Shown: positions 9-58,255 of the stretch, piece by piece
Numbering within the stretch: the stretch's first letter is position 1
Layout: each line of letters opens with the position of its first letter
Source of the DNA: an uncultured Gammaproteobacteria bacterium
GTDB lineage: Bacteria > Patescibacteriota > Microgenomatia > UBA8517
DNA length: 64,000 nucleotides
NCBI GenBank assembly: GCA_964599625.1
Contig: CAZRGC010000002.1
Coordinates: forward strand, 71,883 to 135,882
Direction: 5' to 3'
The notes under the pieces: model-generated
What the model was told of the DNA's origin: nothing
The model's database searches: none
Seen by the model: only the letters and a program-made list of their open reading frames with translations
Program-made: the position numbers and the translations under genes

Positions 9-1091
9 TTGGCACAAAGGGTGTCTCAAAAGATAGGAGACATATTTATTTTGATAAAAGGCGAAAACGAATTTGTCACAAAAAAAATAGCAGAATGCTC
101 AACGGGACTAAGTTTTGAATCGGGGAGGCAGTGCTGGGAGAGAGCAATTGGTGACGTTGATAAGATTTTTGGAACAAACACAGCTTTTGATTTCCTACAA
201 AAAGCATCTTCTTTGGACCCCCAGATTCAGGGCACCTGTCATTATTATTCTGAATACATTGGGTTTTTGGCTTACGAAAGATTTTTCAGGGGCCAAAAAC
301 CTGAAATATATAAATCTGCCGATATCTGCGGATATGGTTTTTATCATGCTTTTTTGCAGGAACTTGTTAGTCATACCAAAGACATAAGCCAGGCATATGA
401 GTATTGCGAAGGTCTGGATTATGGGGGAAGTGGTAGTTTTGGAAAAGAGAATTGCATACAAGGTATGGGTATAGGACTAGTTTTTATGAATGCAGGAGTT
501 TATTACGGAATGGATGACATTATTGTAAATCTATCCGCAAGCGAATGTGGAAAATTTTTCTCAAAAGATTCGGAGATTGCAGACATTTGCATTAATGGTG
601 TTTTTTCCGGTTTGGCACATTTGTATTTTGGGGATCACGGTATTTACCTGGACCTTAAAAAGGAAGACCCTTTTTGGGTTTGCAGAAATTTTGACATAAG
701 CTTGCAGCGGGAGTGTTACCCTGCACTGTCAGAAGTTGTTTATTATTCCGGTGGTGAAGATATAAATAAAACTGTAAACCATATTTCTGCTATCAAAGAT
801 GATATTGCAAGGCGCTTAACTGCAGAAAAGTTAGGCATAGCTATTTATAGTTCCGGGTACTTTAAAGGCAGACAACACTCACCTTTATTTGTATGTAAAT
901 TTCCTGATACAGAAGTTTCTGAATCTTGTTTCGATGGCTATATAAAGCGTTATATAGCAGTGGAGGTAAGAGCTTTAGAGGGTAAACTTAAAGAGGAAGT
1001 TTGTGAGATTCCCGACTTGCCTGATTATCGAAAAAAAACTTGCAATAAGTATTTAAAAATTTTTATAAACAACAATGAAAACGGATATTAA
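9..1091 (+). CDS. Secreted Cys/His-rich repeat protein, family A. Probably 5'-truncated by the window edge, since no signal/TM is present and the frame is open upstream.
   Basis: Carries the motifs CHYYSEYIGF, CGYGFYHAF, CINGVFSGL...GDHG and DPFWVCRNF. These are shared with the C-terminal domains of the ORFs at 1075, 3812, 6542, 9739, 10806 and 16098. Confidence 0.6.
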   Translation: MAQRVSQKIGDIFILIKGENEFVTKKIAECSTGLSFESGRQCWERAIGDVDKIFGTNTAFDFLQKASSLDPQIQGTCHYYSEYIGFLAYERFFRGQKPEIYKSADICGYGFYHAFLQELVSHTKDISQAYEYCEGLDYGGSGSFGKENCIQGMGIGLVFMNAGVYYGMDDIIVNLSASECGKFFSKDSEIADICINGVFSGLAHLYFGDHGIYLDLKKEDPFWVCRNFDISLQRECYPALSEVVYYSGGEDINKTVNHISAIKDDIARRLTAEKLGIAIYSSGYFKGRQHSPLFVCKFPDTEVSESCFDGYIKRYIAVEVRALEGKLKEEVCEIPDLPDYRKKTCNKYLKIFINNNENGY

Positions 1092-2583
1092 AATAATTTT
1101 ATTTAGATTAGTTTTTGTGGCTTATCTTGTCTTTTGCGTATTTCTTGCCGTTAAACTTTTACCAAAAGTATCAAAAGTTGCTTCCGGCGAAGTCGTCGTT
1201 ACTTTTGATCTTAACAAGGGTTTTTCGCCGTCTGAGGTTGTTATCTCCAGAGGTACCACTGTTCGTTTTAGAAACATGAGTGGGGTCAACTTCTGGCCAG
1301 CCAGTGATTTTTATCCTCAAAATTCAAATTATCCGGACTTTGATCCTAAAAGGATAATTGAATCCGGTGGTGAGTGGAGTTTCCGTTTTGATAATACGGG
1401 GAGTTGGGGTTATCACGACCATATTAAGCCTATATTCAAAGGTGTTGTTGTTGTGACCGATGAAAAAAAGTTTCATATACAAAACAAGAGTACTTGTGGC
1501 GACTTATCAAAGTTGTCCTATGTTCAAAGGCAGCTTTGTTGGTATAACCAAATTAAAGAAGCCGTAAAAACAGGTGGTGTTGAAAAAGCGCTTGTGCTTT
1601 TTGAGTCGCTGTATAACAGTGAACCTTTGTTTTCTCAAGGCTGCCACGATGCAATGCATTTAATAGGAGATGAGGCGTATAGGGAGTACCGCAAGGGTGT
1701 TAAGTTTGACTTTAGTGAGGAAACCTCATTTTGTGGATACGGATTTTATCATGGGTTTATTGAAGCCATGCTTTATACAACAGCTGACTACAAAGAAGTC
1801 ACTGATTTTTGTGAGGAAGCGAATACTAATATCAAAAATATAGAATCGCCAAACGCAATTTATTCCTGTTATCACGGTATTGGACACTCAACATTCGATG
1901 CTCATGATCCGTCGTTGTGGGGGGATGAAAACAAAATGGTTGGCCCTGCGATAACAACTTGTGAACGAGTTACAAAAAACTATTCACAAGAAAAGACAAA
2001 ACAGTGTGTTACGGGAGTTTTCAACGCGTTGGGGATTGCATACGCAAACAACCTGTATAAGTTTAAACTAAAGGAATCAGATCCTGTTTGGTATTGTAGA
2101 AATCTGAACGATACTTATAAAAAGGCTTGCTTTATAGAAGTCTCTATGGCTTGGATAAATTCTCAAATGGGCGACTACGATTTCAAATTCAATGATGGAG
2201 CAAAGTTCATCCAGAATTTGAACGACGCGGTGGGTGAAGAAGCTGCCATTTTTGCATTGTCTTCGGAGTTTTCGAGACTTCATTTAAATGACTTTTCCGA
2301 CAAATCCCTTCTTGATAACTGCAGGAGTGTTCGGAAGGACTTATTTGATCAGTGCCTGGTGGGGGTACAGCTGGCACTTTTGAATTGGGGAAAACCTGGC
2401 GAAGAGTACGTGAGGGCACTTTCCTTTTGTGATAACGGAGTGTTTTCGGTTAATGAGAAACGAAGTTGCTATGGATATATTTTTAAGCACCTTCCCAATA
2501 TGTATTCCAAAGAAAAAAGAATTAGTATATGCGAAGGCCTGCTTGACCAGGTCATCAAATCACAATGCATAAACTCACAATAA
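1075..2583 (+). CDS. Cupredoxin-like N-terminal domain fused to a family-A Cys/His-rich repeat domain; N-terminal TM/signal anchor.
   Basis: Hydrophobic N-terminus (LVFVAYLVFCVFLAV). The beta-rich domain at aa ~35-125 has WPASD...YHDH...GVVVV. Downstream motifs: CHDAMHLIGD, CGYGFYHGF, CYHGIGHS, CVTGVFNALG, DPVWYCRNL. It overlaps the previous ORF by 17 nt. Confidence 0.65.
   Translation: MKTDIKIILFRLVFVAYLVFCVFLAVKLLPKVSKVASGEVVVTFDLNKGFSPSEVVISRGTTVRFRNMSGVNFWPASDFYPQNSNYPDFDPKRIIESGGEWSFRFDNTGSWGYHDHIKPIFKGVVVVTDEKKFHIQNKSTCGDLSKLSYVQRQLCWYNQIKEAVKTGGVEKALVLFESLYNSEPLFSQGCHDAMHLIGDEAYREYRKGVKFDFSEETSFCGYGFYHGFIEAMLYTTADYKEVTDFCEEANTNIKNIESPNAIYSCYHGIGHSTFDAHDPSLWGDENKMVGPAITTCERVTKNYSQEKTKQCVTGVFNALGIAYANNLYKFKLKESDPVWYCRNLNDTYKKACFIEVSMAWINSQMGDYDFKFNDGAKFIQNLNDAVGEEAAIFALSSEFSRLHLNDFSDKSLLDNCRSVRKDLFDQCLVGVQLALLNWGKPGEEYVRALSFCDNGVFSVNEKRSCYGYIFKHLPNMYSKEKRISICEGLLDQVIKSQCINSQ
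1177..1450 (+). other. Cupredoxin-like (plastocyanin/EfeO-N-like) domain lacking the canonical Cys ligand.
   Basis: The pattern TVRFRN...FWPASD...FD...GEWSFRFDNTGSWGYHDHIKPIFKGVVVV parallels plastocyanin's GxYxFxCxPHxxxGMxGxIxV. It has His-Asp-His where the Cys-x-x-His normally sits. Confidence 0.4.
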
Positions 2584-3818
2584 TTTTTTCAAAAACTAAT
2601 CTTTTGTGGCTGATCACAACTCTTTTAGTTGTTTTTTTTGTTTTCCTAAAAGTGGGTCCGATTGTTAACTTTGGGAATGGAATGCTTGAAATGTTTGCAG
2701 GAAAGGTAATAAAAAAATGCGCAAACGAGACATACCGTCCAGCATGTTATGACAATGAGATTCCCAAATTTGTTGACAGAAATATTCTTTCAATGGAACA
2801 GGCTTTTGCTATGAATTCAATAATCCAAAAATCCGACAAAGAATATTTGTATTGTCACATATTGGGACACAACTTGGCCGATTCAGAAACAAGAAAAAAC
2901 CCGGATAAGTGGCTTGAGGTTATTACGCGGTGTCCCACACTGGCATGCAACAACGGATGTGAACATGGAGCAATAATGAGGAGGTTCAAGGGCTCCGAAG
3001 TCCTTTCGGCTTCTCAAATAGAAGAAATTATTCCGGAGCTGAAACGGGCTTGTGAACCAAGAGGGAAGTGGGACCCTACCGAGCTGGAAAGATCAATGTG
3101 CTATCACTCCATTGGACACTTGGGCCTGTATATTACAGGAGCTGATATTGAAAAATCTTTGGAAATATGTAGTAAAGTGGGCATTAAAGAAGATGGAAGA
3201 AGCTATTATCAAACGTGTGTTTCGGGAGTTTTTATGCTTATATTTCAAAGTCTGGACAAAGACGATGAAGCTTTGGTTGTGAATGTCAAACCCCCGAAAG
3301 AAAAAGTGAACGAATTTTGTTCAAAATATAGCGGAGTGGAAAACACAGCCTGCAGGACGGAATCCTGGCCGTATTTTTTTGATGAATTTACTGAGCCTGG
3401 TGGGCTAACCAAATTTTGCAGTTTCACTCAGGATAGTTATTACAGAAACTGGTGTTTTGATACAGGGTTGCGGGGTAACCTCACTTTGAGATTGTTGCAA
3501 AAGGATGGCATTTCCGGAGTTGCAAAATACTGTTTGGGTCTGCCCGGTGATATAAAAGCAAGATGTTTTGCATCAGTTGCCAACAGCTGGGTCCAAGATG
3601 AACCCAACTACATAGCCGATTCGATTGCTTTGTGTGTTGAAGCTGACAAGTATGGCTACGCAGACGAGTGCTATAAGGGTCTTTTGTATTTTTCCAAGTT
3701 TAGTTTTAATTATGGTTCTGATCTGTGGAGGTCGTATTGTACAAACTTTCCCGAAAACCACAAACAAAAAAACTATAGACAAATGTGTTTGAAAGGAGAA
3801 ACTCCTGAGGGATGGTAA
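2565..3818 (+). CDS. Secreted Cys-rich repeat protein, family B.
   Basis: N-terminal TM (LLWLITTLLVVFFVFL). Repeated C-x(9-12)-C modules: YLYCHILGHN, CNNGCEHGAIMRRFKG, CYHSIGHLGLYI, YYQTCVSGVFM, FCSKYSGVENTAC, FCSFTQDSYYRNWC. Close paralog of the ORF at 5305. Confidence 0.6.
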   Translation: MHKLTIIFSKTNLLWLITTLLVVFFVFLKVGPIVNFGNGMLEMFAGKVIKKCANETYRPACYDNEIPKFVDRNILSMEQAFAMNSIIQKSDKEYLYCHILGHNLADSETRKNPDKWLEVITRCPTLACNNGCEHGAIMRRFKGSEVLSASQIEEIIPELKRACEPRGKWDPTELERSMCYHSIGHLGLYITGADIEKSLEICSKVGIKEDGRSYYQTCVSGVFMLIFQSLDKDDEALVVNVKPPKEKVNEFCSKYSGVENTACRTESWPYFFDEFTEPGGLTKFCSFTQDSYYRNWCFDTGLRGNLTLRLLQKDGISGVAKYCLGLPGDIKARCFASVANSWVQDEPNYIADSIALCVEADKYGYADECYKGLLYFSKFSFNYGSDLWRSYCTNFPENHKQKNYRQMCLKGETPEGW

Positions 3819-5290
3819 AAAAAATCTTTTTTCGTTTCATTTTGATGATCTTTTTGTTTGCAGCGACCTGCCTGGTTGTTAGAGAGTCCGTATTTAAAAA
3901 TACAATTTTTTATACTGATAAAGGTTTTGCCCCGGCCGGAATACGAGTAGTAAGAGGCGATACCGTTACATTTATCAATCTGACAAACAGACAATTTTGG
4001 CCCGCGAGCGACCCTCATCCTCAGCATTCAATAGAACCAACATTTGACGCTCAAAACGGAATTGGTCTTTTGGGGAAATATAAAATATTTTTTAAAAACG
4101 ACGGAACGTATAGATACCACGATCATCTAAACCCTAAATTTAGGGGTGTAATAAAAGTTATTGATAAAGCTGTGGGTGCCGATGTATCACGCTGTACAGA
4201 GTTTACAGACAAGTACGAAAAGAAGCTTTGTTTCCTGGAATATTTAGAAGACATGCAGCTGGCAAAAGGTGATGTGAAAGCTTTATCAATGCTGGAGACA
4301 ATCGTATCGCAAAATTCTGATCTAAAGAGCGAGTGTCACTCAATGGCGCATAACATTGGTGAAATAGGTTATTGGTCATATTCGACGAATGCAAAAGTTA
4401 TAAATTCACAAAAAGTATCGGTCTGCGGGTTTGGCTATGTCCACGGTTTTATGCAGGAGTTTGCTCATCATTCTCCAGATTTCTACTCTAAAAGCAAATC
4501 CTTTTGTGACTATTTTTCAAAAGAAGTTAAATATGATTCAGACGATTGGCAAATTACTCCGGAAGATACCTGCTACAACGGAATAGGGCATGGAATTGTC
4601 TACCTCAACTTTGAGGATTATCGAAACGATCTTGTATCATTGGCCAGGACGTCTGGTGCAAAGTGTTCCGAAATAAATTCTGCACCCGCACCGCTTGATC
4701 ATTGTTTGCAGGGTGTTTTTAGCGGAATTTCGGGTTTGTATTTGGGAACTCACGGATTTTTCTTGCCACTTCCGGACACTGAGCCTCTTTCTTTGTGTAC
4801 CAAGTTTGACAAAGAGTATAAGTTAAGGTGTCTTGCCAACATGATTCCGGTGGTTGGGGTTATATATAATCACAACCTAGAGAACCTTCTGATGACTATC
4901 AAAAATATGTCAAAAGAGGATTTGGAACATTCTTACAGACTGGCGGGAGATATTGCAGCAAATTGGTACAGTGGAGGGGAAATTGATTCGGATAGTGTTG
5001 CAAAAGCATGCAGAAAACTAAGTAATCCCTTCAGCAAATATTGTATCAGTGGTTTTGTTGCCGCTCTTCCTAATATTTACGGGTACGAGGCAGATCCTGA
5101 ATTTGCCATGAATATTTGTAAAAAGGCATTAGTGGCGGCGGCCGGCTGCCAGACTGAATTTTTGCTTGAGTATGAAAAAATAAATCCAGACAAAATGGAG
5201 AGTGTATTGAGAGTATTGGAAGCAAAAGACTTCCATTTATTGTGTAGAAACCCCATAATCGGTAAATACTGTACATATTCAAATAATTGA
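3812..5290 (+). CDS. Cupredoxin-like N-terminal domain fused to a family-A Cys/His-rich repeat domain.
   Basis: TM (FRFILMIFLFAATCLVV). Cupredoxin-like motif FWPASDPHPQHS...YRYHDHLNPKFRGVIKV at roughly nt 3900-4170. Then CHSMAHNIGE, CGFGYVHGF, CYNGIGHG, CLQGVFSGISGLYLGTHG. The ATG overlaps the upstream stop. Confidence 0.65.
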   Translation: MVKKIFFRFILMIFLFAATCLVVRESVFKNTIFYTDKGFAPAGIRVVRGDTVTFINLTNRQFWPASDPHPQHSIEPTFDAQNGIGLLGKYKIFFKNDGTYRYHDHLNPKFRGVIKVIDKAVGADVSRCTEFTDKYEKKLCFLEYLEDMQLAKGDVKALSMLETIVSQNSDLKSECHSMAHNIGEIGYWSYSTNAKVINSQKVSVCGFGYVHGFMQEFAHHSPDFYSKSKSFCDYFSKEVKYDSDDWQITPEDTCYNGIGHGIVYLNFEDYRNDLVSLARTSGAKCSEINSAPAPLDHCLQGVFSGISGLYLGTHGFFLPLPDTEPLSLCTKFDKEYKLRCLANMIPVVGVIYNHNLENLLMTIKNMSKEDLEHSYRLAGDIAANWYSGGEIDSDSVAKACRKLSNPFSKYCISGFVAALPNIYGYEADPEFAMNICKKALVAAAGCQTEFLLEYEKINPDKMESVLRVLEAKDFHLLCRNPIIGKYCTYSNN

Positions 5291-5304
5291 ATTTATATGA
5301 CTAT

Positions 5305-6528
5305 ATGAAAAATAAACCAGTGACTCTTTTTGCAATTTTGTTGACTATTTCCGGTTTATTTATTTTTTTTATACCTGTTTTTAATAATTTATCCAGCGAA
5401 TATAAAACAAGTTATTTTTCGAAAAAAATTATAGAGAAGTGCTCGAACGACAATTTTAGAAGGGTCTGCTATGACAGAGAGATTCCCAAACTTCTTAAAA
5501 AAGGCTTTGTAACAATGGAGGAAGCTTTTTTGATAACTAACGATATTCAAAAAAAGGACACCTCGTATTTGTATTGTCATACTTTGGGACATGAGTTGGC
5601 GGACATCGAAACTGCAAAAAATACAGATAAATGGCTGGACGTTATGGCGCGTTGTCCGAATTCTGCCTGCAATGGCGGGTGCGAACATGGGGCTGTTGTG
5701 CGAAAGTTCAAGGGCAGCGAGACACTGACAGATGCACAAATAGAGGCGATAATTCCAGAGATATCAACCGCCTGTGAACCCAGGGGTAGTTGGAGGCCTT
5801 CAGGGCTTGAGATATCACTTTGCTACCATTCGATGGGGCATTTGGGCATGTATATTACGAATGCTGATATTGAAAGGTCTTTAGACTTTTGCAAAGATGT
5901 TTCTAAAAAACCTGACGGACGTGATTATTACCAGACTTGTGTGCAGGGTGTGTTTATGATTATTTTCCAAGCAAGGGACAGTGACGATTTGGCCTTGGTT
6001 TCCAGAATTGCACCTAAAAAAGTTGAAATAGAATCTTTTTGTTCAAAATATAGCGGCATCGACATGGTGGCTTGCAGAATAGAGTCCTGGCCGCTTTTCT
6101 CCGAAGAACTCAGATCGGCAGAAGGTTTAACAAAGTTTTGCAGTTTTACAAATGATTCAAATTTTAGGAAATGGTGTTTTGATGACTCAGGAATGAGGGG
6201 TGGTCTTTCAATTGAAATATTACAGTCGAAAGGAATTTCTGGTGTTGCGGATTATTGTGTTTCGTTCCCTTCTGATATAAGAGAAAGGTGTTTTAGTTCG
6301 GTTGCCACTGCTTGGATACAGGATGAACCATCCTTTTTAAGTAAATCTATAGAGTTATGCCAAGAGGGCAGTAAGTACGGTTACTCAAACAAATGCTTTG
6401 ACGCACTTGCTTCTTATTCAGTTTTCAGATTGAATAAAGGTTCGGAAGAATGGTCCGATTATTGCACGGCGCTCCCGAGTTTTTATAAGGAAAAATGCCT
6501 TAAAGGTGAAGTGTCGGATTCTTGGTAA
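5305..6528 (+). CDS. Secreted Cys-rich repeat protein, family B.
   Basis: ATG at 5305. The ORF track opens at a TTG at 5287 that overlaps the upstream stop. TM (VTLFAILLTISGLFIFFIPVF). Motifs colinear with 2565..3818: CYDREIPK, YLYCHTLGHELAD, CNGGCEHGAVVRKFKG, CYHSMGHLGMYI, YYQTCVQGVFM. Confidence 0.6.
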   Translation: MKNKPVTLFAILLTISGLFIFFIPVFNNLSSEYKTSYFSKKIIEKCSNDNFRRVCYDREIPKLLKKGFVTMEEAFLITNDIQKKDTSYLYCHTLGHELADIETAKNTDKWLDVMARCPNSACNGGCEHGAVVRKFKGSETLTDAQIEAIIPEISTACEPRGSWRPSGLEISLCYHSMGHLGMYITNADIERSLDFCKDVSKKPDGRDYYQTCVQGVFMIIFQARDSDDLALVSRIAPKKVEIESFCSKYSGIDMVACRIESWPLFSEELRSAEGLTKFCSFTNDSNFRKWCFDDSGMRGGLSIEILQSKGISGVADYCVSFPSDIRERCFSSVATAWIQDEPSFLSKSIELCQEGSKYGYSNKCFDALASYSVFRLNKGSEEWSDYCTALPSFYKEKCLKGEVSDSW

Positions 6529-6541
6529 CAACTACAACAAC

Positions 6542-7711
6542 ATGGTTAAAGCAGAAAATATTAGATTTGCCTTATTGATATTAATTCAGACATTTGCCAT
6601 GGTGCTAATTTCAATGGTTGTTCTGATTCTAACCTACGATAAGTTCAAAAGCGGGTCCAAATGCAGGACACTTTCGGATAACAAAGCAAAAATTGAATGT
6701 TGGAAACAAATTATCGATACCAATTTAGCCAAAGGCGATTTGGATGGAAGTATGAATCAAGTGGCCGAGTTTTATCAAATTGACGCTGTCTTTGCAGCCA
6801 ACTGCCACGATTTTACACACACGGTTGGGAAGAAAGCATACGAGCTGTTTTCCAAGGGGGTCAAATTCAAAGTGGGCGATAAAACCGCGTATTGTGCATA
6901 CGGCTTTTACCATGGTTTTATGGAAAGTTTGGTTTCTCAAAACGGAGATATAGAGACGGCACGCGACTTTTGTAAATTTGTGGATTCGGAGGTGGCAAAA
7001 ACCTCCCCTGGGGCCAAATTGGCATGCTATCACGGTATTGGCCATGGTTGGACAAATGTTCACGACGAGTCGCTTTGGGGAGATGAGCAGAAACTTATTC
7101 AGCCGGCTCTCACACTCTGTGAAAAAGTGACAAAGGACCCGGAAGAATTAAAGATCTGTGCAACAGGCGTTTTTGATTCAATTTCAATCGGGTATTACAA
7201 CTACCTTTACGAGTTGAAAATAAACAAAAAAGACCCATATTGGATCTGCAAGATCCAAAAAGAAAATTATAAAACACCATGCTACATGGATATTTCTCCG
7301 GCTGTTTTATGGCTTGGTGAATATCGCCTAGATAAAGCACTGAAATTTCTGCCCACCGTCGAAGAAAAGTTTAGAGATATTGTTGCTGTAACCCTTTCGG
7401 AAGATGCAGTCAGATTTATTTTGAAGGACGGATTGAAAATCGAAACCCAAATTGATATTTGTAGGGAATACAAAAATCCAGTATTAGATCTTTGCATTCA
7501 GGGCATAGCCTCTGGCTATTTGCAATTTGGACCGCCCCAGGAAGAGGAAAGGCTTGCTCTTAACTTTTGCTCGAATTCGTATTTAAACGACGAAGAGAAA
7601 AAAGTATGCTTTAAGCGTTTGGCGCAAAGCACCAAACAACTACTCTCGAATGATAGATATAAAGAGTCGTGTTCTAAAATTCCAGAAAATTATCGCGGAT
7701 ATTGTAACTAG
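6542..7711 (+). CDS. Secreted Cys/His-rich repeat protein, family A, without a cupredoxin domain.
   Basis: ATG at 6542 just after the upstream stop gives the signal anchor MVKAENIRFALLILIQTFAMVLISMVV. Motifs CHDFTHTVGK, CAYGFYHGF, CYHGIGHGWTNVHDESLWGDE, CATGVFDSI, DPYWICKIQ. Confidence 0.6.
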   Translation: MVKAENIRFALLILIQTFAMVLISMVVLILTYDKFKSGSKCRTLSDNKAKIECWKQIIDTNLAKGDLDGSMNQVAEFYQIDAVFAANCHDFTHTVGKKAYELFSKGVKFKVGDKTAYCAYGFYHGFMESLVSQNGDIETARDFCKFVDSEVAKTSPGAKLACYHGIGHGWTNVHDESLWGDEQKLIQPALTLCEKVTKDPEELKICATGVFDSISIGYYNYLYELKINKKDPYWICKIQKENYKTPCYMDISPAVLWLGEYRLDKALKFLPTVEEKFRDIVAVTLSEDAVRFILKDGLKIETQIDICREYKNPVLDLCIQGIASGYLQFGPPQEEERLALNFCSNSYLNDEEKKVCFKRLAQSTKQLLSNDRYKESCSKIPENYRGYCN

Positions 7712-8744
7712 CAAGAACTTTGCCGAAAAGTCCTTGGTAGTTATTGGTTTTGTGCTTCTTATTCTTTTATTGAAGTTTACTTCACCTTGGGTGAAAGATG
7801 ACTGTAGGAAAAATAATTATTTGTATGGCTATAAATTTTATTTGTCGTACGATATCGGGGAATCGCCAATATTCAGGGAAATAAATGATAATGACAAATG
7901 TTACTATGAGTTTTTCCGGGGAATATTTGAGGCTTCAAATATTCCCTTTGCAAATTACAAAAAGCTGGAAGGCGTTTGTGATTACATTAACTCAAAATAC
8001 CCGGTTAAAAGTTGGAATCAATGCTATTTTAAACTTGGAATAGCTTCAACTTATACTAAGCGTGACAAGATAAACGACGCTAAATCACTGCAGAAGTTTA
8101 CCGATAAGAGAATAAAATTTTGCGAAGGTGCGGGTGTTTACAAAGGCGATTGTATCGTTGGTGTTTACACCGGAATAAATATTGCTTTTGAAAATAGAGA
8201 CAACGACTCAGTTTTTCAGATTAAAGATGGTGACCCATTCTGGCTTTGCAAAGTTGGAAAAGGGTTGGAATATAAGCTTCAATGTTACCGTAATCTGGTT
8301 TCTGTTCTTTATAAGTTTTATCCTGATGATTTTCCAAAAGCTCTGGAAGTCTTGAAAAATGACTTAAGTGATAGTTTCGAGCGCTTTGAGCTTTTTCTTA
8401 CTTATTTTTCTAGCTTGGCATATCGGGAAGAATATAGTTATCAAAAAGTTTCAGAACTTTGTAACAGTTTTAAAGATGCGTTTACGAGACATTCGTGCAT
8501 TCAGGGTTATGCAACCGGTATTGACGAGGTGGCGGCTAATGGCACAGAGGGCAAGGAAGTTATTAAATTTTGTATGAATCCAATTTTTAGCACATTTGAG
8601 AGGGGTGAGTGTATAAGACGCGGCTTTTTTGAGCTCCCAACAACTTGGGATTTGAATGAGAAAAAATCTGAATGTCTTAGGTTGTCGCCGATTAATTATC
8701 GTAAATACTGCAACGTGAGTATGGATATGCCTGTGCCATTATGA
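7650..8744 (+). CDS. Secreted Cys-rich repeat protein, family C (His-poor variant); start uncertain.
   Basis: TM (VVIGFVLLILLL). Modules CYYEFFRGIF, CYFKLGIAST, CIVGVYTGINIAF, DPFWLCKVGK, CYRNLVSVLY, CIQGYATGI. The called ATG overlaps the previous gene by 62 nt. A TTG at 7733 is an alternative start. Confidence 0.5.
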   Translation: MIDIKSRVLKFQKIIADIVTSKNFAEKSLVVIGFVLLILLLKFTSPWVKDDCRKNNYLYGYKFYLSYDIGESPIFREINDNDKCYYEFFRGIFEASNIPFANYKKLEGVCDYINSKYPVKSWNQCYFKLGIASTYTKRDKINDAKSLQKFTDKRIKFCEGAGVYKGDCIVGVYTGINIAFENRDNDSVFQIKDGDPFWLCKVGKGLEYKLQCYRNLVSVLYKFYPDDFPKALEVLKNDLSDSFERFELFLTYFSSLAYREEYSYQKVSELCNSFKDAFTRHSCIQGYATGIDEVAANGTEGKEVIKFCMNPIFSTFERGECIRRGFFELPTTWDLNEKKSECLRLSPINYRKYCNVSMDMPVPL

Positions 8745-9721
8745 TTAGAAAGATAGTACTTATTGCTATACTGTTTCTGGTTTTTGTTGCAAATTTTGAT
8801 CCAACAACTTCTGATGACGGGAGGTTTTGCAAAGAGATCAATTACTTATCGGGAATAAGGTTTGGATTGTTGAACCACTTAAATATTTATTTTGGAGAAC
8901 CTGATGTTATTGCAGCTGATTCTTGCAACCTGGTTTTTTATTCTGGTCTTGCGAAATCTTTTGAACTAACCGGCAGTTACGAAAGCCTGAATTCGTCATG
9001 TCTTTTGATAAACAAGTCGTTTGCACCAAGACTCTGGGATCAGTGTTATTTTAAAGTTGGCGATGGGCTTGCGTACTCAAAAATTGCAGACAACCCAGGG
9101 AATGAAATCGTAATCAGAGAAGTTGACAGAGAATTGGAGTTTTGTAATGGAACAGCAAATCGTCTGAGTTGTATAGCCGGGGTCTTTACAGGGCTAAACA
9201 AAGCTTACACAAGCGACTTAAAAGCCGACAACAAGCACGAACCTTTTGGGGTATGTAACGCCATAAAACAGAACGAACACAAGCTTCAATGTATGAGAAA
9301 CATGGCCTCCTATCTTTATAATTTTGCAGGCGGCGATTTGGATTTGGCCATAAAGGTAATCGCGGATAATTCAGACAGCGACCTCGAAAAATACGAGGCT
9401 ACCCACACTTTGTTTTCTAGTTTGGCATTCATCAACGAGATAAAAGAAACTGATATCCCGAGAGTGTGTGTGGCATACAAAGACAGTGAAGTTAGATTTG
9501 CGTGTATATCCGGGTATGCAAACGGAATAACCGAGACTGCGGAAAGCGGAACGGAGACACCAAGAGTTATAACTTTTTGTATAAACCCGACTTTTAAGAA
9601 ACAAGAACAAGCTGAATGTCTTAGGAGGGCTTTTTCGGAAATACCCGTAGTCGATAAAAAGATGAACTGTCGGGAAAACGCCCCCGAAGAATTTGAACAT
9701 ATTTGCGGGAAAGTTGACTAG
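8741..9721 (+). CDS. Secreted Cys-rich repeat protein, family C.
   Basis: ATGA start/stop overlap with the upstream gene. Signal peptide MIRKIVLIAILFLVFVANF. Modules colinear with 7650..8744: CNLVFYSGLAKSF, CYFKVGDGLAYS, CIAGVFTGLNKAY, CMRNMASYLY, CISGYANGI. Confidence 0.55.
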   Translation: MIRKIVLIAILFLVFVANFDPTTSDDGRFCKEINYLSGIRFGLLNHLNIYFGEPDVIAADSCNLVFYSGLAKSFELTGSYESLNSSCLLINKSFAPRLWDQCYFKVGDGLAYSKIADNPGNEIVIREVDRELEFCNGTANRLSCIAGVFTGLNKAYTSDLKADNKHEPFGVCNAIKQNEHKLQCMRNMASYLYNFAGGDLDLAIKVIADNSDSDLEKYEATHTLFSSLAFINEIKETDIPRVCVAYKDSEVRFACISGYANGITETAESGTETPRVITFCINPTFKKQEQAECLRRAFSEIPVVDKKMNCRENAPEEFEHICGKVD

Positions 9722-9738
9722 GAAGTAAGAAAGTAAAT

Positions 9739-10809
9739 ATGAAGACAAAAACCAACAGTTTGACACTTTTGACCATTTTGATAGCGGCGGTCTTTATTGC
9801 ACGTATTGGAGTCAAATCCGAAAACCGGATTGTAAAAAAATGCGAAAACGTTCAAAACACCAGGGATTGTAGATTAAAAGAGGTGGTAAAAGTAATGAAC
9901 GAGCGAGGTGTGAGATTTGCATTTATTGCTGTCGAAAATCTTAAAGACGCAGATTCCGAGTTTGGTCCCACGTGTCATGCGTTTGTTCACGAGATAGGTT
10001 TGGAAGCATATAAAAATGTTTTAAAAGGAAGTAAATTTTTGGCCGTACCAATTTCACCTTGCAACTATGCTTTTTTCCATGGGTTGATGATGGAGCTTGT
10101 AATGCACCAAAGGACAACCAAGGAACTAGACTTCAGGTTTGCAAATCAGGTTTGCCAAGATGTTGTGAGAATGTCTGGATATGATCAATCAATAAAATAT
10201 CAGTGTTACCATGGGATAGGGCATGGTCTTGCACCTTATCACCTGTTGATGACCAACAAACCAATAGCCGAGATTATTGACAATAGTCTGCGAGACTGCG
10301 AGGAATATTTTGATGCCAAAGATTTTTGCAAGACGGGTGTTTATGGAGGAATGAGCTTGTTTATAACCGGTGACCACAATCTGTTTTTGGAGGGTTTTGG
10401 CATTTCTGACGCGTTTAAATTATGCAAAAACCAACCTTTAGATTTGCGGCCTGTGTGTTATGAAATGATTGCACCTGCACTTGTTTTTTCTACAGGCGGC
10501 GATGTTAAAAAGGCAGTGGCGGTGATGAAAGACTCAATAAAAAACGACGAGGAAAGATTGGTTATCTCCAGACAGCTCGGCCAGGCGGTTTTATCTTACA
10601 ACTTTGAGGCCGGCATAGTTGAAATGAAAGAAGTCTGTGATCAGATTTTAGGAGATAGCCACTTAAGCTGTGTGGAAGGTTTTATAAACGGTTATTTCGA
10701 CTCTCGTTCTAAAAACAGCATCAAACAAACTGCTGAAAGTTTCTGCCAAAGTCCAAGCTTTACAAACGAGGAATCAGATTTGTGCAGAAACCTTGCAGTC
10801 AAAATATGA
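9739..10809 (+). CDS. Secreted Cys/His-rich repeat protein, family A.
   Basis: Signal anchor MKTKTNSLTLLTILIAAVFIA. Motifs CHAFVHEIGLEAY, CNYAFFHGL, CYHGIGHGLAPYH, CKTGVYGGMSLFITGDHN. Confidence 0.6.
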   Translation: MKTKTNSLTLLTILIAAVFIARIGVKSENRIVKKCENVQNTRDCRLKEVVKVMNERGVRFAFIAVENLKDADSEFGPTCHAFVHEIGLEAYKNVLKGSKFLAVPISPCNYAFFHGLMMELVMHQRTTKELDFRFANQVCQDVVRMSGYDQSIKYQCYHGIGHGLAPYHLLMTNKPIAEIIDNSLRDCEEYFDAKDFCKTGVYGGMSLFITGDHNLFLEGFGISDAFKLCKNQPLDLRPVCYEMIAPALVFSTGGDVKKAVAVMKDSIKNDEERLVISRQLGQAVLSYNFEAGIVEMKEVCDQILGDSHLSCVEGFINGYFDSRSKNSIKQTAESFCQSPSFTNEESDLCRNLAVKI

Positions 10810-11951
10810 ATTCAAAATACAAATATATAATTATTGCCGTTATTGCCACTTTTGTTTTAATAATTTTATATATGCGAAATCAGATGTTTTTGTCCGACGG
10901 CTCAGAATGCTTTGATGTTCCCAGTTCTGAAAAATCTGACTGTATTCGACCTGATATAGATAGACTTTTGAACAATGGTAGAGTTGATGCGGCCTTAACC
11001 TTTCTAAGGCAATACCAGGTAAATGACAAAAATTATTATGGAACAGATTGTCACGGCATAGCCCACTATATAGGGGATAAGGCGTATCTGGTTTACAAGA
11101 AAGGCGGAAAAATCAACGTTGGAAGTGATTCAGGCGTTTGTGTATATGGGTTTTACCATGCTTTTACAAGCTCGTTTATTGCAAACGGTGAATACGAAAC
11201 AGTGAGAAGTTTTTGTTCAGGTATAAGTAAAGACAAGTTTCAGGAAATTTCAGGGTGTTATCATGGCATGGGCCACGGCGCCATCTACGATTTTTATGAA
11301 AAATTCGGGATTAGGGATCCATTAACTTTAATCAATAAAGGCGTCGCTCTTTGTGAGAAGTTGGAATTGCCCGAAGAGGGAGCTTTGGAATGTGTTACGG
11401 GTGTTTATGATGGGATTGGAGACGAGGTTTTGGACCCGTCATATACAGGACTCACACCTGAAATCATTTATTCTTACTGTGTAGACCAGCCGAAAGTATA
11501 CAAAGGTAAATGTTACGAAAATATTTCTCACCTGGTCTTTAGAAAAACTCAGTCCGGGTTTGAAAATTTACTGAACTTCGCACTGAAAAATGTAGAACAT
11601 GATTATGTGGCAGATGCTGTCAAAGGCTTGGCAACAATATATGTTGTCGATCTTAAAGGTGAGGATATTCGGACAGGAATCAGACTTTGTTTACCTCTAA
11701 AGGATGATGCAAAAACAGGGTGTATTAAAAATATGGTTTACAAAGTTATGGCTGATGTGGAAGACGGTACTCAGTTTGAAAAAGGTAAAGATTTTTGCAG
11801 TTTGGACGTTTTTGGAGAAATTGACAGAAGCTTTTGTGTCCGGGTTACGCTCGATGCTTTGACTGGTTTTTATAGTCAAAATCAGATTGAAGAGAAGTGC
11901 GAAGCTGACTCCAGTTTTTTTGGTGCGGCTTGTAAATCTAAATTTTTATGA
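10806..11951 (+). CDS. Secreted Cys/His-rich repeat protein, family A.
   Basis: The ATG at 10806 forms an ATGA overlap with the upstream TGA. The ORF track opens 24 nt earlier. TM (YIIIAVIATFVLIIL). Motifs CHGIAHYIGDKAY, CVYGFYHAF, CYHGMGHGAIYDF, CVTGVYDGIGDE. Confidence 0.6.
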   Translation: MNSKYKYIIIAVIATFVLIILYMRNQMFLSDGSECFDVPSSEKSDCIRPDIDRLLNNGRVDAALTFLRQYQVNDKNYYGTDCHGIAHYIGDKAYLVYKKGGKINVGSDSGVCVYGFYHAFTSSFIANGEYETVRSFCSGISKDKFQEISGCYHGMGHGAIYDFYEKFGIRDPLTLINKGVALCEKLELPEEGALECVTGVYDGIGDEVLDPSYTGLTPEIIYSYCVDQPKVYKGKCYENISHLVFRKTQSGFENLLNFALKNVEHDYVADAVKGLATIYVVDLKGEDIRTGIRLCLPLKDDAKTGCIKNMVYKVMADVEDGTQFEKGKDFCSLDVFGEIDRSFCVRVTLDALTGFYSQNQIEEKCEADSSFFGAACKSKFL

Positions 11952-12946
11952 GACCGAGAATATTGATATTGGCAATAGGCTTAATGTTAACTTCATTCAT
12001 CGTGATCTATGCAGGTATAAATTATCCGTTCACCGTGCGGATTACAAATGATGTGTTGATAAACCAAAATGAGTTAAAAAAAATAATTAAGACAAAAGGT
12101 ATTGATGAGGCTTATGTTTTTTTTAAGAAAAACTTTTCAAAGTACGACGCAACCTCCAAACATTATGTGGGGCATTTCTTGGGACAAGAATCTTACAGAA
12201 TAATGGGTGACAAAGGCCTGTCTATGTGCGATTTTGGGTTAGATTACGGATGCATTCACGGTTTTGTCATTGCCGGCATTGGCGAAAAGGGTAACGGTTT
12301 TATAGAAACTTCCATGAAGCGTTGTGAGGATTTTGATCCAAATGATGTCAGGAGGGGGAGTTGTGTACATGGGGTAAGCCATACACTCTTGTACTTAAAG
12401 GGGTATTCCTATAACGACTTGGTTTGGTCCCTAAAGCAATGCGATCAAATGTTATCAAGTGACAAGTTTGTGGGACCTGTCGGGTGCTACGAGGCCGTGT
12501 TTATGGAATACAACCTTAGGAATTTGGATGGTGAGTCGACGGGCAAATGGTTTGAAACAAGACCTCTTGACGATGCAAGACCGCTTTACCCTTGCGACGT
12601 AATCGATAACAGATATAAAAACTCTTGCTATTCGGAACTTGGTTCAATGTGGTCCAACAACATTGGCATGGACTTTTCGAAAATGTTTTCTTTTTGTGGG
12701 GGAATTATCAACCGTTTACATTTGAATTCTTGTTACTGGGGGGTTGGAAGGTCGATGGCTGATGACTACCAATTTGATTACAAACGAGTTGAAACAAAAT
12801 GTAGCGAGATAAAAGATGGTGGAAAGCAGTCTTGTATCGAAGGAGCTTCGGTTGTTTTATCCAATAACGGTGTAAAAGAGGCCGTGTCAATTTGCAGTGC
12901 TTTGGATGCAGACAGTGCTCTAAGGTGTAAAAAAATATTTGAATAA
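11948..12946 (+). CDS. Divergent member of Cys/His-rich family A.
   Basis: ATGA overlap at 11948. TM (ILILAIGLMLTSFIVIYAG). Degenerate motifs KHYVGHFLGQESY, CDFGLDYGCIHGF, CVHGVSHTLLYL, CYEAVFMEY, CYWGVGRSM. Confidence 0.5.
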   Translation: MRPRILILAIGLMLTSFIVIYAGINYPFTVRITNDVLINQNELKKIIKTKGIDEAYVFFKKNFSKYDATSKHYVGHFLGQESYRIMGDKGLSMCDFGLDYGCIHGFVIAGIGEKGNGFIETSMKRCEDFDPNDVRRGSCVHGVSHTLLYLKGYSYNDLVWSLKQCDQMLSSDKFVGPVGCYEAVFMEYNLRNLDGESTGKWFETRPLDDARPLYPCDVIDNRYKNSCYSELGSMWSNNIGMDFSKMFSFCGGIINRLHLNSCYWGVGRSMADDYQFDYKRVETKCSEIKDGGKQSCIEGASVVLSNNGVKEAVSICSALDADSALRCKKIFE

Positions 12947-12962
12947 CTGATATTATGAAATA

Positions 12963-13586
12963 GTGCTGCCAATGAACGACCAAGCGACAGAAAATAATCA
13001 GATCACTCAGGAAAACCTCACCAGCCCACAAACGCCATTGCAGGCTTCCACGCCTTCTGGCCAGTCCCAAATACCTGTTTCTGTCGTTCCAACTGAAGTA
13101 TCCGAAGAAGGTGACGCGCCATTTTACACACAGTGGGCCTTTTGGGTTCTCGTGGTTTTGATCGTTGTTTTGTTCGGTGTTATTGCATTTTTTTTAGTTC
13201 CGGCAAAAAATTCTTTTCTTGAGGCAGAAATGCAAGTTTCTGCAGAATCTGTGAAGTTGCATGTAAAAAACCTTACAGCACCCAGGAACGGTTTTTTGGT
13301 GCTACAAAAAGACGAAAACGGTGTTCCTGGTGCAATTTTTGAAATAAGTCCATTTTTGGTTCCAGACCACTATAAAGATTTTTTTATACCCTTCACACCT
13401 GACGAATACAACGACGATGTCTATTATCAAGACCTAGGGCTAAACGGAACCTTCTACGTTACTTACTACCTGGATAACGATAGCACTGGAACCTATAAAA
13501 AAGAAATTGATACGACAATCGGCAAGGACCAAGCAGGCAAACCCTTGCAAATAAAGATTGTCAGTGGCAAAATGGTTCAAGAGTAA
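12963..13586 (+). CDS. Single-pass membrane protein. Low-complexity cytoplasmic N-terminus, TM, extracellular domain of about 130 aa; function unknown.
   Basis: Q/T/S/P-rich N-terminal 60 aa. TM (WAFWVLVVLIVVLFGVIAFFLV). No recognisable catalytic motifs. Confidence 0.4.
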   Translation: MLPMNDQATENNQITQENLTSPQTPLQASTPSGQSQIPVSVVPTEVSEEGDAPFYTQWAFWVLVVLIVVLFGVIAFFLVPAKNSFLEAEMQVSAESVKLHVKNLTAPRNGFLVLQKDENGVPGAIFEISPFLVPDHYKDFFIPFTPDEYNDDVYYQDLGLNGTFYVTYYLDNDSTGTYKKEIDTTIGKDQAGKPLQIKIVSGKMVQE

Positions 13587-13587
13587 T

Positions 13588-14106
13588 ATGAATAAATTTA
13601 CATTGATTTTGTATTCTGTTCTGATATCGCTTTTAATTGCTCCTACTGTTTTGGCTCACGGGACAGCTCAAAGTTTCCCTAAAGATGTCGACAAATATAC
13701 GATTGAATTTGAATATGACGCATCTGGGGTTTTTGATGACACAACGATGGCTTTTGTTTTTAGGCTTTTGGACCAAAAGTCAAAAGAGCCGGTTAAGTTT
13801 GACTCTGTGTTGGCAAGGTTTGAAGACAGCAAAGACAAGTCGGCTGTAATAGTTTCCAGGCTATACCCGGATGAGCTACTGGACGGAATTGCCAGAATAT
13901 CTGCACTTTTGAATCGTGGAGACTATAAAGTATATTTAATCTTTTACAAAGAGGGAAACAAAATTGTTGAAACAGATTACGACCTGAACGTTCAAAAAGG
14001 TACAACAAGGAAAGACTTTCCGACGGTTCCAGTTGTTGTTGGGTTTTTGGGTTCTGCGTTGGGTTTTGTTTTTGGCAAGATGAAGAAGTCTTCAAATGAG
14101 AGATAA
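13588..14106 (+). CDS. Secreted protein with signal peptide and C-terminal TM anchor; function unknown.
   Basis: ATG at 13588 lies 2 nt after the upstream TAA. The ORF track opens at 13558. Signal peptide MNKFTLILYSVLISLLIAPTVLA|HG. C-terminal TM (VPVVVGFLGSALGFVFG) followed by basic residues. Confidence 0.4.
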   Translation: MNKFTLILYSVLISLLIAPTVLAHGTAQSFPKDVDKYTIEFEYDASGVFDDTTMAFVFRLLDQKSKEPVKFDSVLARFEDSKDKSAVIVSRLYPDELLDGIARISALLNRGDYKVYLIFYKEGNKIVETDYDLNVQKGTTRKDFPTVPVVVGFLGSALGFVFGKMKKSSNER

Positions 14107-58254: not shown

Positions 58255-58255
58255 T

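What the first reader, a model, noticed from the sequence alone, without database searches (positions are those of the whole stretch)
1177..1450. Non-canonical cupredoxin-like domain (HDH in place of the Cys-x-x-His copper loop) attached to the array
Three copies (aa about 35-125 of 1075..2583, aa about 30-120 of 3812..5290, and the stand-alone 15715..16101) share F.N.....WPASD.HP.H....FD....G.W.F.F...G.W.YHDH..P...G.V.V. The end of this pattern parallels the plastocyanin/azurin C-terminal strand GxYxYxCxxHxxxGMxGxIxV, but the Cys ligand is replaced by His-Asp-His and there is no Met. That predicts a His-only (type-2-like) metal site, or a non-metal cupredoxin fold as in EfeO-N. The linkage to the His/Cys-rich paralogs points to an extracytoplasmic metal-handling or redox role.
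Basis: partly seen in the sequence, partly recalled or inferred. Interest (0 to 1): 0.6.

Follow-up and report, generated by a model that had tools for sequence, protein, structure and literature searches.

The report
Cysteine-less cupredoxin domain with histidine cluster
Three genes in this window carry a membrane-anchored domain that has the blue-copper (cupredoxin) fold but has lost all four blue-copper ligands and gained four near-invariant histidines; it belongs to a large, uncharacterised family of ultra-small bacteria and archaea that databases sometimes call "plastocyanin".

Summary
Three copies of a ~90-aa domain (nt 1183-1461, 3896-4165, 15826-16098) share WPASD...P...FD...G.W.YHDH..P...G. 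Copy 1 has YPQN where the others have HPxH.

The cupredoxin fold is shown:
- Family profile against PDB sequences: amicyanin E=3.7e-9, a NirK/MCO C-terminal cupredoxin 7e-10.
- hhalign against canonical type-1 repeats: 99.1%, E=7e-19.
- AF2 model pLDDT 91.8; Foldseek plastocyanin/amicyanin at E~1e-7, TM 0.75.

The alignments replace all four type-1 ligands: His to Arg/Phe, Cys to Asp, His to Ala, Met to Ile. It is therefore not an electron-carrying plastocyanin.

Across 256 family domains the conserved residues are H113 and H115, which flank the former Cys position (100%), H79 (97%) and H82 (94%) on a 7-residue insertion, and S76, D/N77 and D89.

The family is mostly Patescibacteria, plus DPANN-labelled archaeal MAGs. 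In 54 of 77 genome loci the domain is fused or adjacent to a Cys/His-rich all-alpha repeat protein (12 paralogs here). In 21 of 77 it lies next to an Ig-like protein with an invariant His after its predicted signal-peptide cleavage site.

A His-only metal site on the NirK-T2/MCO face is my best inference.

The parts
1075..2583 (+). 502-aa fusion protein: N-terminal TM helix, HDH cupredoxin-like domain (aa 37-129, nt 1183-1461), then a Cys/His-rich all-alpha repeat domain (aa ~136-498). Motifs: WPASD nt 1294-1308, YPQN (in place of HPxH) nt 1312-1323, YHDH nt 1411-1422.
3812..5290 (+). 492-aa fusion protein of the same architecture. HDH domain aa 29-118 (nt 3896-4165). Motifs: WPASD nt 3998-4012, HPQH nt 4016-4027, YHDH nt 4115-4126.
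15715..16101 (+). Stand-alone 128-aa protein: TM helix aa 3-25 plus HDH cupredoxin-like domain aa 38-128 (nt 15826-16098). Motifs: WPASD nt 15931-15945, HPSH nt 15949-15960, YHDH nt 16048-16059. AF2 pLDDT 91.8.
16098..17279 (+). Cys/His-rich helical paralog directly downstream of the stand-alone domain gene. Its in-frame ATG at 16098 overlaps the upstream TGA (ATGA), which suggests translational coupling; that this ATG is the start is inferred from L001 (the ORF listing begins at GTG 16041).
9..12946 (+). Head-to-tail array of 11 ORFs, all paralogs of the Cys/His-rich all-alpha domain (hmmsearch E 1e-134 to 1e-15), including the two fusion proteins. The Cys scaffold is largely conserved in all of them, most completely at the central positions. 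The His set H62/H66/H97/H138/H142 is complete in 7 of the 12 paralogs (these 11 plus 16098..17279) and lost in 7650..8744 and 8741..9721.
13558..14106 (+). 182-aa 'AHG' protein: signal peptide ending VLA|HG, Ig-like body, C-terminal TM. Relatives lie next to the HDH gene in 21 of 77 loci. The His right after the predicted cleavage site is invariant.
12963..13586 (+). 207-aa membrane-anchored protein (weak DUF7282 match), syntenic in related genomes.
14096..15670 (+). 524-aa polytopic PMT_2-like glycosyltransferase (25.7 bits against GA 26.1), syntenic immediately upstream of the stand-alone HDH gene in the closest related genome (L001/L002); a PMT_2 gene lies elsewhere in the cluster, on the opposite strand, in L003.

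Best explanation
Shown: it is a true cupredoxin-fold domain, most similar to amicyanin, plastocyanin and the C-terminal cupredoxin of NirK-type enzymes. Inferred from an N-terminal TM helix with a basic N-terminus: it is displayed outside the membrane. Shown by alignment: all four type-1 copper ligands have been replaced, so it cannot be a blue-copper electron carrier. Inferred: Asp114 and Ser76 fill the vacated type-1 pocket. The residues under strongest constraint are two His flanking the former Cys position (H113-D-H115), two His on an inserted turn (H79-P-x-H82) and D/N77. I expect these to lie together on the face that binds type-2 copper in NirK and the trinuclear cluster in multicopper oxidases (HCH/HSH plus HxH). 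I expect them to bind a metal ion, most likely Cu(II), less likely Zn or Fe. Shown: this module is physically coupled to a Cys-scaffolded (probably disulfide-stapled) alpha-solenoid carrying three i/i+4 pairs (H62/H66, H97/E101, H138/H142), and often to an Ig-like protein with an invariant His at its predicted mature N-terminus. Inferred: together they form a cell-surface metal-handling or redox unit of Patescibacteria and DPANN. The cupredoxin module would hold or pass the metal, or complete an inter-domain site with the partner.
For: Fold:
- The family profile hits amicyanin at E=3.7e-9, the 9cck C-terminal cupredoxin at 7.1e-10 and plastocyanin at 2e-5.
- hhalign against canonical T1 repeats gives 99.1%, E=7.3e-19.
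- AF2 pLDDT is 91.8. Foldseek finds 348 PDB hits at E<=1e-3, led by plastocyanins and amicyanins at TM 0.68-0.78.
- All 39 family members tested hit Pfam Cupredoxin_1 (best 3.8e-10) and 32 hit Copper-bind.

Ligand loss: the canonical His/Cys/His/Met columns align to R/F72, D114, A117 and I120.

Constraint across 256 family domains: H113 100%, H115 100%, H79 97%, H82 94%, S76 98%, D/N77 95%, D89 97%. H79 and H82 are lost only in the ortholog subclade of window copy 1, while H113 and H115 never vary.

Face: in the printed 9cck domain-1 alignment, D77/H79 fall on its HxH motif and H113-D-H115 on its HCH motif (weak, 7.3 bits).

Coupling:
- The domain is fused or adjacent to the helical domain in 54 of 77 loci, and 62 of 77 loci have one within 6 kb. 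28 of 106 representatives are fusions.
- The stop codon overlaps the downstream ORF's in-frame ATG as ATGA.
- The AHG protein is adjacent in 21 of 77 loci and fused in L066 and P0248.
- One relative (P0263) fuses a canonical Cys-His-Met cupredoxin to an HDH domain.
- DsbA-like genes occur in 5 loci.
Against: - No coordinates were available, so the clustering of the four His is inferred from cupredoxin, MCO and NirK topology, not measured.
- There is no experimental metal data.
- D77 is Asn in 39% of domains and D114 is Asn in 6%. This fits hydrogen-bonding roles as well as ligation.
- Window copy 1 and its orthologs lack H79 and/or H82, so any site there has at most two His plus carboxylates.
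- No copper ATPase, chaperone or other metal-trafficking gene recurs in the 77 neighbourhoods.
- MCO similarity is statistically insignificant (E 0.01-0.5).
- The three window copies score below the PF13473 gathering threshold.
Confidence: 0.5

Rival explanations
1. A metal-free cupredoxin-fold module, like the copper-less phytocyanin-type ENODL domains, ephrin ectodomains or some EfeO N-domains. It would act as a rigid stalk or docking domain between the membrane anchor and the helical repeat. The conserved His, Asp and Ser would form a hydrogen-bond network or a protein or glycan contact surface.
For: All type-1 ligands are gone. D77/N77 and D114/N114 interchange, as expected for hydrogen-bonding residues. 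The domain also occurs fused to fn3, Ig-like, PG_binding_1 and DUF5667 modules typical of surface proteins. No metal-trafficking genes recur nearby. A subclade tolerates loss of H79 and H82.
Against: Invariance of 100% for two His in an HxH arrangement, plus 94-97% for two further His, across a family that has otherwise diverged to ~30% identity is unusual for a purely structural role. The partners also carry invariant His sets.
Confidence: 0.3
2. A bona fide plastocyanin-type soluble electron carrier, for example the donor to NirK. JGI labels some homologues this way, and 'cupredoxin/plastocyanin' genes are treated this way in CPR metabolic reconstructions.
For: JGI calls several homologues 'plastocyanin'. 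32 of 39 members hit PF00127 weakly. Published CPR models invoke a single-domain cupredoxin as NirK donor (PMC5581439; PMC12931201). I could not establish whether those genes are this family.
Against: The Cys, both His and the Met of the type-1 site are all replaced. No Cys exists anywhere in the domain. Type-1 copper requires the Cys thiolate (established knowledge). The protein is TM-anchored and usually fused to a large non-redox-looking domain.
Confidence: 0.03
3. One half of an inter-domain catalytic copper centre. The HxH pair plus H79/H82 would be completed by His from a second HDH domain (an oligomer, as in NirK or two-domain MCO trimers) or from the His grid of the helical partner, giving an oxidoreductase active site.
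For: The H-D-H and D-x-H motifs map onto HCH and HxH of an MCO-type domain (weak). Tandem HDH-HDH proteins exist (P0161, P0171), as do HDH plus a second Cys-less cupredoxin with HLH/HVH (P0203, P0206). There is obligatory-looking coupling to a partner with H62/H66, H97/E101 and H138/H142. A fusion to a canonical T1 domain (P0263) would supply electrons as in NirK.
Against: There is no significant sequence similarity to MCO or NirK catalytic domains (NirK domain I E~0.006-0.01). The fusion with a T1 domain is a single case. There is no structural model of the complex. Degenerate paralogs without His are common.
Confidence: 0.12
4. A hydrolase-like active site (Ser76, His113/115, Asp89/114) grafted on a beta-sandwich.
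For: Ser76 (98%), Asp89 (97%), and His113 and His115 (100%) are all near-invariant.
Against: There is no nucleophile-elbow motif and no similarity to any hydrolase family in Pfam, NCBIfam or PDB searches. The geometry is untested.
Confidence: 0.04

Closest known systems
Amicyanin / plastocyanin (type-1 blue copper proteins, Pfam PF00127)
   Same: Same fold and clear homology (E=3.7e-9 and 2e-5; Foldseek TM 0.68-0.78). Same strand order. The ...YH[C/D]..P...G.V.V C-terminal strand is colinear with amicyanin YHCTPHPFMRGKVVV.
   Different: All four copper ligands are replaced (R/F, D, A, I). A 7-residue insertion carries H79/H82. The protein is TM-anchored and usually fused to a 370-aa helical domain. 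It cannot form a Cys-thiolate copper centre.
Pfam Cupredoxin_1 (PF13473; includes the EfeO N-terminal and FtrB-type cupredoxin-like domains)
   Same: Best Pfam match for all members (39 of 39 at E<=1, best 3.8e-10). Several relatives exceed the gathering threshold. Like EfeO-N, it is a cupredoxin that need not carry a type-1 site (my knowledge).
   Different: The window copies fall below threshold (13.6, 15.8 and 23.8 bits against 27). There is no M75/EfeO C-domain, EfeU/FTR1 or EfeB in the neighbourhoods. The family-specific WPASD/HPxH/HDH signature is not part of the PF13473 definition.
Domain 1 of multicopper oxidases (HWH / WYHSH motifs) and the type-2 site face of NirK (His100, His135 next to Cys136)
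   Same: A cupredoxin domain without its own type-1 site, in which the two residues flanking the 'Cys position' are His (HSH in laccase domain 1, from my knowledge; HDH here). In the 9cck alignment D77/H79 fall on HxH and H113-D-H115 on HCH.
   Different: Similarity to MCOs is not significant (E 0.01-0.5). Only three of the four cluster His positions are His. There is no partner cupredoxin domain in most proteins. No T1 centre is available to feed electrons.
Engineered azurin C112D ('type 2' / 'type zero' copper sites)
   Same: Cys replaced by Asp on a cupredoxin scaffold, which in azurin still binds Cu(II) in a non-blue site (my knowledge of the Gray/Richards work; not tested here).
   Different: In azurin C112D the two His ligands are retained. 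Here they are not, so a site at the canonical position would need H79 and H115 to substitute.
Copper-less cupredoxin-fold domains (plant ENODL phytocyanin-like proteins, ephrins)
   Same: Cupredoxin fold with ligands lost; extracellular, membrane-tethered (my knowledge).
   Different: Those families do not show a replacement set of invariant His. They have no prokaryotic distribution.

Membership tests
Cupredoxin superfamily (fold level) | Greek-key beta-sandwich of 7-8 strands, detectable by homology to solved cupredoxins | tested here: met
   Profile against PDB: amicyanin 3.7e-9, 9cck 7.1e-10. hhalign 99.1%. AF2 pLDDT 91.8 with 8 strands. Foldseek TM 0.75 to plastocyanin.
Type-1 blue copper proteins (plastocyanin/amicyanin/azurin, PF00127) | Ligand set His(N), Cys, His(C), Met/Gln in the loops after strand 4 and between strands 7 and 8 | tested here: not met
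   The canonical columns align to R/F72, D114, A117 and I120. No Cys is present in any of 39 aligned members.
Type-1 blue copper proteins (plastocyanin/amicyanin/azurin, PF00127) | Blue (~600 nm) Cu(II) centre and electron-transfer function | not testable with these tools
   Requires spectroscopy. The sequence predicts it is absent.
Pfam Cupredoxin_1 (PF13473) | Score at or above the gathering threshold of 27 bits | tested here: inconclusive
   Window copies score 13.6, 15.8 and 23.8 bits, below threshold. Relatives score 29.9-69.8 bits, above it. Most stand-alone homologues carry a precomputed PF13473 hit.
EfeO (EfeUOB iron uptake) N-terminal cupredoxin | Fusion to an M75 peptidase-like domain and/or an operon with EfeU (FTR1) and EfeB | tested here: not met
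   The C-terminal domain has no Pfam, NCBIfam or PDB match. Neighbours in the window and in L001-L003 carry no FTR1, M75 or DyP hits.
Multicopper oxidase / NirK | Two or more cupredoxin domains with a T1 site and four HxH motifs (or a His3 T2 site) at a domain interface | tested here: not met
   There is a single domain per protein in the window, no T1 site, and one HxH (H113-D-H115) plus HPxH. MCO hits are at E 0.01-0.5 only. NirK domain I scores E~0.006-0.01.
Proposed HDH family (this work) | WP[AS]S[DN]xHPxH ... FD ... [YF]H[DN]H signature on an amicyanin-like scaffold | tested here: met
   Copies 2 and 3 match fully. Copy 1 lacks the two insertion His (YPQN).
Proposed HDH family (this work) | The four conserved His converge on one metal-binding point | not testable with these tools
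   Structure prediction returns no coordinates. This is inferred only from topology.

The most novel reading that the evidence does not exclude
The HDH cupredoxin module, the Cys-scaffolded (probably disulfide-stapled) His-grid alpha-solenoid and the N-terminal-His Ig-like protein together form a previously unrecognised, Patescibacteria- and DPANN-wide extracytoplasmic copper enzyme or copper-acquisition machine. In it, a T1-less cupredoxin supplies half of an MCO/NirK-like inter-domain copper site and the solenoid supplies the other half. The 12-gene paralog array diversifies its substrate or host-contact surface.
Probability: 0.12. Interest if true: 0.85.

Novelty: new variant of a known kind. 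Interest (0 to 1): 0.5.

Why it matters
There are three reasons.

(1) Annotation. JGI labels some members of this family 'plastocyanin', and most carry a Cupredoxin_1 hit. Published CPR metabolic models use a 'cupredoxin/plastocyanin' gene as the electron donor to NirK (PMC5581439, PMC12931201). If those genes belong to this Cys-less family, that link in the proposed electron chain has no support. I could not check which genes those papers used.

(2) Biology of ultra-small symbionts. The family and its helical partner are abundant, multi-copy (12 paralogs in 17 kb here; 206 in 77 loci) and appear mostly in Patescibacteria, with some DPANN-labelled MAGs. That makes them candidates for a lineage-typical cell-surface function.

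(3) Metalloprotein evolution. This is a natural cupredoxin in which the type-1 site is erased, yet the His flanking the old Cys stay invariant. It is a possible natural analogue of the step between single-domain blue copper proteins and the inter-domain sites of NirK and multicopper oxidases.

Tried and rejected
- **C-terminal domain.** Foldseek against the PDB gave only generic HEAT/ARM-type solenoids (best E 1.8e-3, TM ~0.2). The sequence profile found no solved relative. There is no Pfam or NCBIfam family.
- **AHG protein.** It has no Pfam or PDB family, only weak filamin/PKD Ig-like noise. A YcnI/CopC-type assignment was considered but not supported by any search.
- **MCO and NirK membership.** Rejected, because the hits are insignificant.
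- **EfeO context.** Rejected, because no EfeU, EfeB or M75 was found.
- **Promoter and terminator scan of the 17-kb cluster.** No better than shuffled sequence (37 against 43 expected).
- **Literature.** Searches for cupredoxin with Patescibacteria, CPR, Parcubacteria or DPANN, for PF13473, and for Cys-to-Asp cupredoxins found no description of this family.
- **Neighbourhood clustering.** The 77 loci contain no recurrent copper ATPase or chaperone.
- **Source names.** Cluster look-ups gave only 'hypothetical protein'.
Full report
**1. Observation**

The window opens with a 17-kb co-directional cluster. ORFs 1075..2583 and 3812..5290 start with a hydrophobic helix followed by a ~90-aa segment. 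That segment recurs as the whole extramembrane part of the 128-aa ORF 15715..16101. The three segments are 37-39% identical, with invariant WPASD, P, FD, G, F, G, YHDH, P and G.

HMM envelopes are nt 1183-1461, 3896-4165 and 15826-16098. No copy has Cys or Met in the C-terminal loop.

**2. Fold**

- Pfam's Cupredoxin_1 is the only consistent hit. It is below threshold for the three window copies (13.6, 15.8 and 23.8 bits against 27).
- The stand-alone protein alone reaches amicyanin at E=0.011.
- A profile of 19 family domains reaches amicyanin at 3.7e-9, the C-terminal cupredoxin of the N. maritimus enzyme 9cck at 7.1e-10, and plastocyanin at 2e-5.
- A profile-profile comparison with 24 canonical His-Cys-His-Met repeats gives 99.1% probability, E=7.3e-19.
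- AlphaFold2 with 39 sequences gives pLDDT 91.8, an N-terminal helix (aa 3-25) and a beta-sandwich.
- Foldseek returns 348 PDB hits at E<=1e-3, led by plastocyanins and amicyanins at TM 0.68-0.78.

The fold is established.

**3. What happened to the copper site**

Three independent alignments put Asp114 (stand-alone numbering) in the Cys column. The hhalign alignment and the HMM alignment to 190 canonical repeats place:

| Canonical type-1 ligand | Residue in this family |
|---|---|
| N-terminal His | R/F72 |
| Cys | D114 |
| C-terminal His | A117 |
| Met | I120 |

They also show HPSHLIY as a 7-residue insertion. All four type-1 ligands are gone. The His preceding the Asp also exists in amicyanin (YHC).

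Conservation among 256 family domains extracted from database hits:

| Residue | Conservation |
|---|---|
| H113 | 100% |
| H115 | 100% |
| H79 | 97% |
| H82 | 94% |
| W73 / P74 / A75 / S76 | 98-99% |
| P80 | 99% |
| F88 / D89 | 97% |
| Position 77 | D 56%, N 39% |
| Position 114 | D 93%, N 6% |

H79 and H82 are lost (to Y and N) only in the ortholog subclade of window copy 1.

Side chains flanking the Cys position point away from the type-1 pocket. That is established for NirK (His135) and for multicopper oxidases (HCH, and HSH in domain 1), from my knowledge. I therefore infer two things:
- D114 and S76 fill the old pocket.
- H113 and H115, with D/N77, H79 and H82, form a new His-rich patch on the face used for type-2 or trinuclear copper.

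The printed alignment to 9cck domain 1 agrees: D77/H79 fall on HxH and H113-D-H115 on HCH. But it scores only 7.3 bits, and laccase and MCO hits are insignificant (E 0.01-0.5). I could not measure distances because no coordinates are exposed. The second refutation criterion (His not clustered) remains untested.

**4. Family and distribution**

- The stand-alone form has 38 close homologues.
- The ~500-aa fusion has 180 homologues, among them Sungbacteria, Kaiserbacteria and 'Patescibacteria group' entries. All are 'hypothetical', or 'plastocyanin' in JGI.
- An exhaustive profile search gave 16,023 hits at E<=1e-3 (canonical cupredoxins included) and 169 at E<=1e-30.
- Of the top 150 cluster representatives, 106 carry the signature: 63 stand-alone, 28 fused to the helical domain, and 15 other. 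The others are tandem HDH-HDH, fn3, Ig-like, PG_binding_1, DUF5667 or AHG fusions.
- 77 loci in species-representative genomes are mostly labelled as Patescibacteria lineages (Paceibacterota/Parcubacteria, Nomura-, Kaiser-, Davies-, Yanofsky-, Andersen-, Doudna-, Peri- and Saccharibacteria-labelled MAGs). A few are labelled Woesearchaeota, Methanosarcinales or simply archaeon, and many carry Gammaproteobacteria or generic labels.
- Some MAG labels, such as 'uncultured Gammaproteobacteria', look unreliable. One such contig is syntenic with this window.

**5. Partners**

*The helical domain.* The C-terminal 370 aa of the fusion proteins form a high-confidence all-alpha repeat (pLDDT 93.5, 18 helices). 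It has no solved relative and no Pfam or NCBIfam family.

It has about 20 invariant or near-invariant Cys, which I infer to be repeat-stapling disulfides. It also has three i/i+4 pairs on successive helices: H62/H66, H97/E101 and H138/H142.

All 12 ORFs 9..12946 and 16098..17279 are paralogs of it (E 1e-134 to 1e-15). The Cys scaffold is largely conserved in all of them. The His set is complete in 7, partial in 3 and absent in 2.

In the 77 external loci the HDH domain is fused or adjacent (<300 bp, same strand) to such a domain in 54, and 62 have one within 6 kb. In the window, the stand-alone gene's stop codon overlaps an in-frame ATG of the next paralog's ORF as ATGA; I take that ATG as its start by comparison with L001.

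*The AHG protein.* A second partner is the 182-aa ORF 13558..14106: signal peptide ending VLA|HG, an Ig-like body and a C-terminal TM. It occurs in 24 of 77 loci and is adjacent to the HDH gene in 21. The His after the predicted cleavage site is invariant. It is fused with both other modules in L066. It matches no known family. An N-terminal-His metal site is an inference by analogy with CopC, YcnI, PmoB and LPMO.

*Other synteny.* Synteny with a PMT_2-like glycosyltransferase, a 200-aa membrane protein, sugar-modifying enzymes and a giant surface protein is kept in two related genomes. DsbA-like genes recur in 5 loci.

**6. Interpretation**

Shown:
- cupredoxin fold;
- loss of the type-1 ligand set;
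- a new, strongly constrained His, Asp and Ser set;
- tight genetic coupling to two other His-bearing surface modules;
- a distribution dominated by Patescibacteria, with some DPANN-labelled MAGs.

Inferred:
- extracytoplasmic location (N-terminal anchor, Cys-rich partners, signal peptide on the AHG protein);
- a His-only metal site on the T2/TNC face;
- cooperation with the partners in metal handling or redox chemistry.

I put about 0.5 on 'binds a metal through the His cluster', about 0.3 on a metal-free structural or docking role, and about 0.03 on a plastocyanin-like carrier.

**7. Comparison and novelty**

It is a homologue of amicyanin and plastocyanin but fails the defining ligand test, so it is not a type-1 copper protein. 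It sits at the edge of Pfam Cupredoxin_1, and it lacks the EfeO context. It resembles MCO domain 1 and the NirK T2 face in logic only.

No paper describing the family was found. CPR papers that use 'cupredoxin/plastocyanin' as a NirK donor may be affected if their genes belong to this family; that was not checked.

I rate it a new variant of a known kind: an uncharacterised, lineage-typical subfamily with a remodelled site and a conserved three-module context.

Noticed in passing
window 13558..14106 (+): 182-aa protein with a signal peptide ending VLA|HG, an Ig-like body and a C-terminal TM. The His directly after the predicted cleavage site is invariant in 22 of 22 relatives. It lies next to the HDH gene in 21 of 77 loci and matches no known family. 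It is a candidate N-terminal-His metal binder.
   Followed up: partly
window 9..12946 and 16098..17279 (+): Twelve paralogs of a Cys-scaffolded all-alpha repeat protein with three i/i+4 pairs (H62/H66, H97/E101, H138/H142) on successive helices. It has no Pfam family and no solved relative. Two paralogs (7650..8744, 8741..9721) have lost the His set but keep the Cys.
   Followed up: partly
window 20914..38097 (-), 46804..58254 (+), 58196..63193 (+): Giant ORFs of 5727, 3816 and 1665 aa. The last has seven Laminin_G_3 domains. GC is ~0.45 inside the 5727-aa gene against ~0.38 in the paralog array. A comparable giant gene follows the cluster in the related genomes L001 and L003.
   Followed up: no
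window 42405..43541 and 43538..44416 (+): ComEC appears split into a 'Competence' membrane ORF and a separate metallo-beta-lactamase ORF overlapping by 4 nt. ComEA lies just upstream (41816..42445).
   Followed up: no
window 38104..38628 (-): 174-aa ORF with only the SAM-like N-terminal domain(s) of a phage-type integrase and no catalytic domain, sitting directly upstream of the 5727-aa gene.
   Followed up: no
window 12963..13586 and 14096..15670 (+): A 207-aa membrane-anchored protein (weak DUF7282 match) and a PMT_2-like polytopic glycosyltransferase sit between the paralog array and the stand-alone HDH gene. This order is conserved in L001/L002; in L003 the PMT_2 gene lies elsewhere in the cluster on the opposite strand.
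   Followed up: partly
P0263, P0203, P0206 (database relatives): Rare architectures. P0263 fuses a canonical Cys-His-Met Cupredoxin_1 domain to an HDH domain. P0203 and P0206 fuse an HDH domain to a second Cys-less cupredoxin with an HLH/HVH motif, a layout reminiscent of two-domain copper oxidases.
   Followed up: partly
L004/L001 (CAZRJH010000004.1) and other TPA_asm MAGs: Contigs syntenic with this Patescibacteria-like window are labelled 'uncultured Gammaproteobacteria' or 'Verrucomicrobiia' in their records. These are probably taxonomic mislabels of the MAGs.
   Followed up: no
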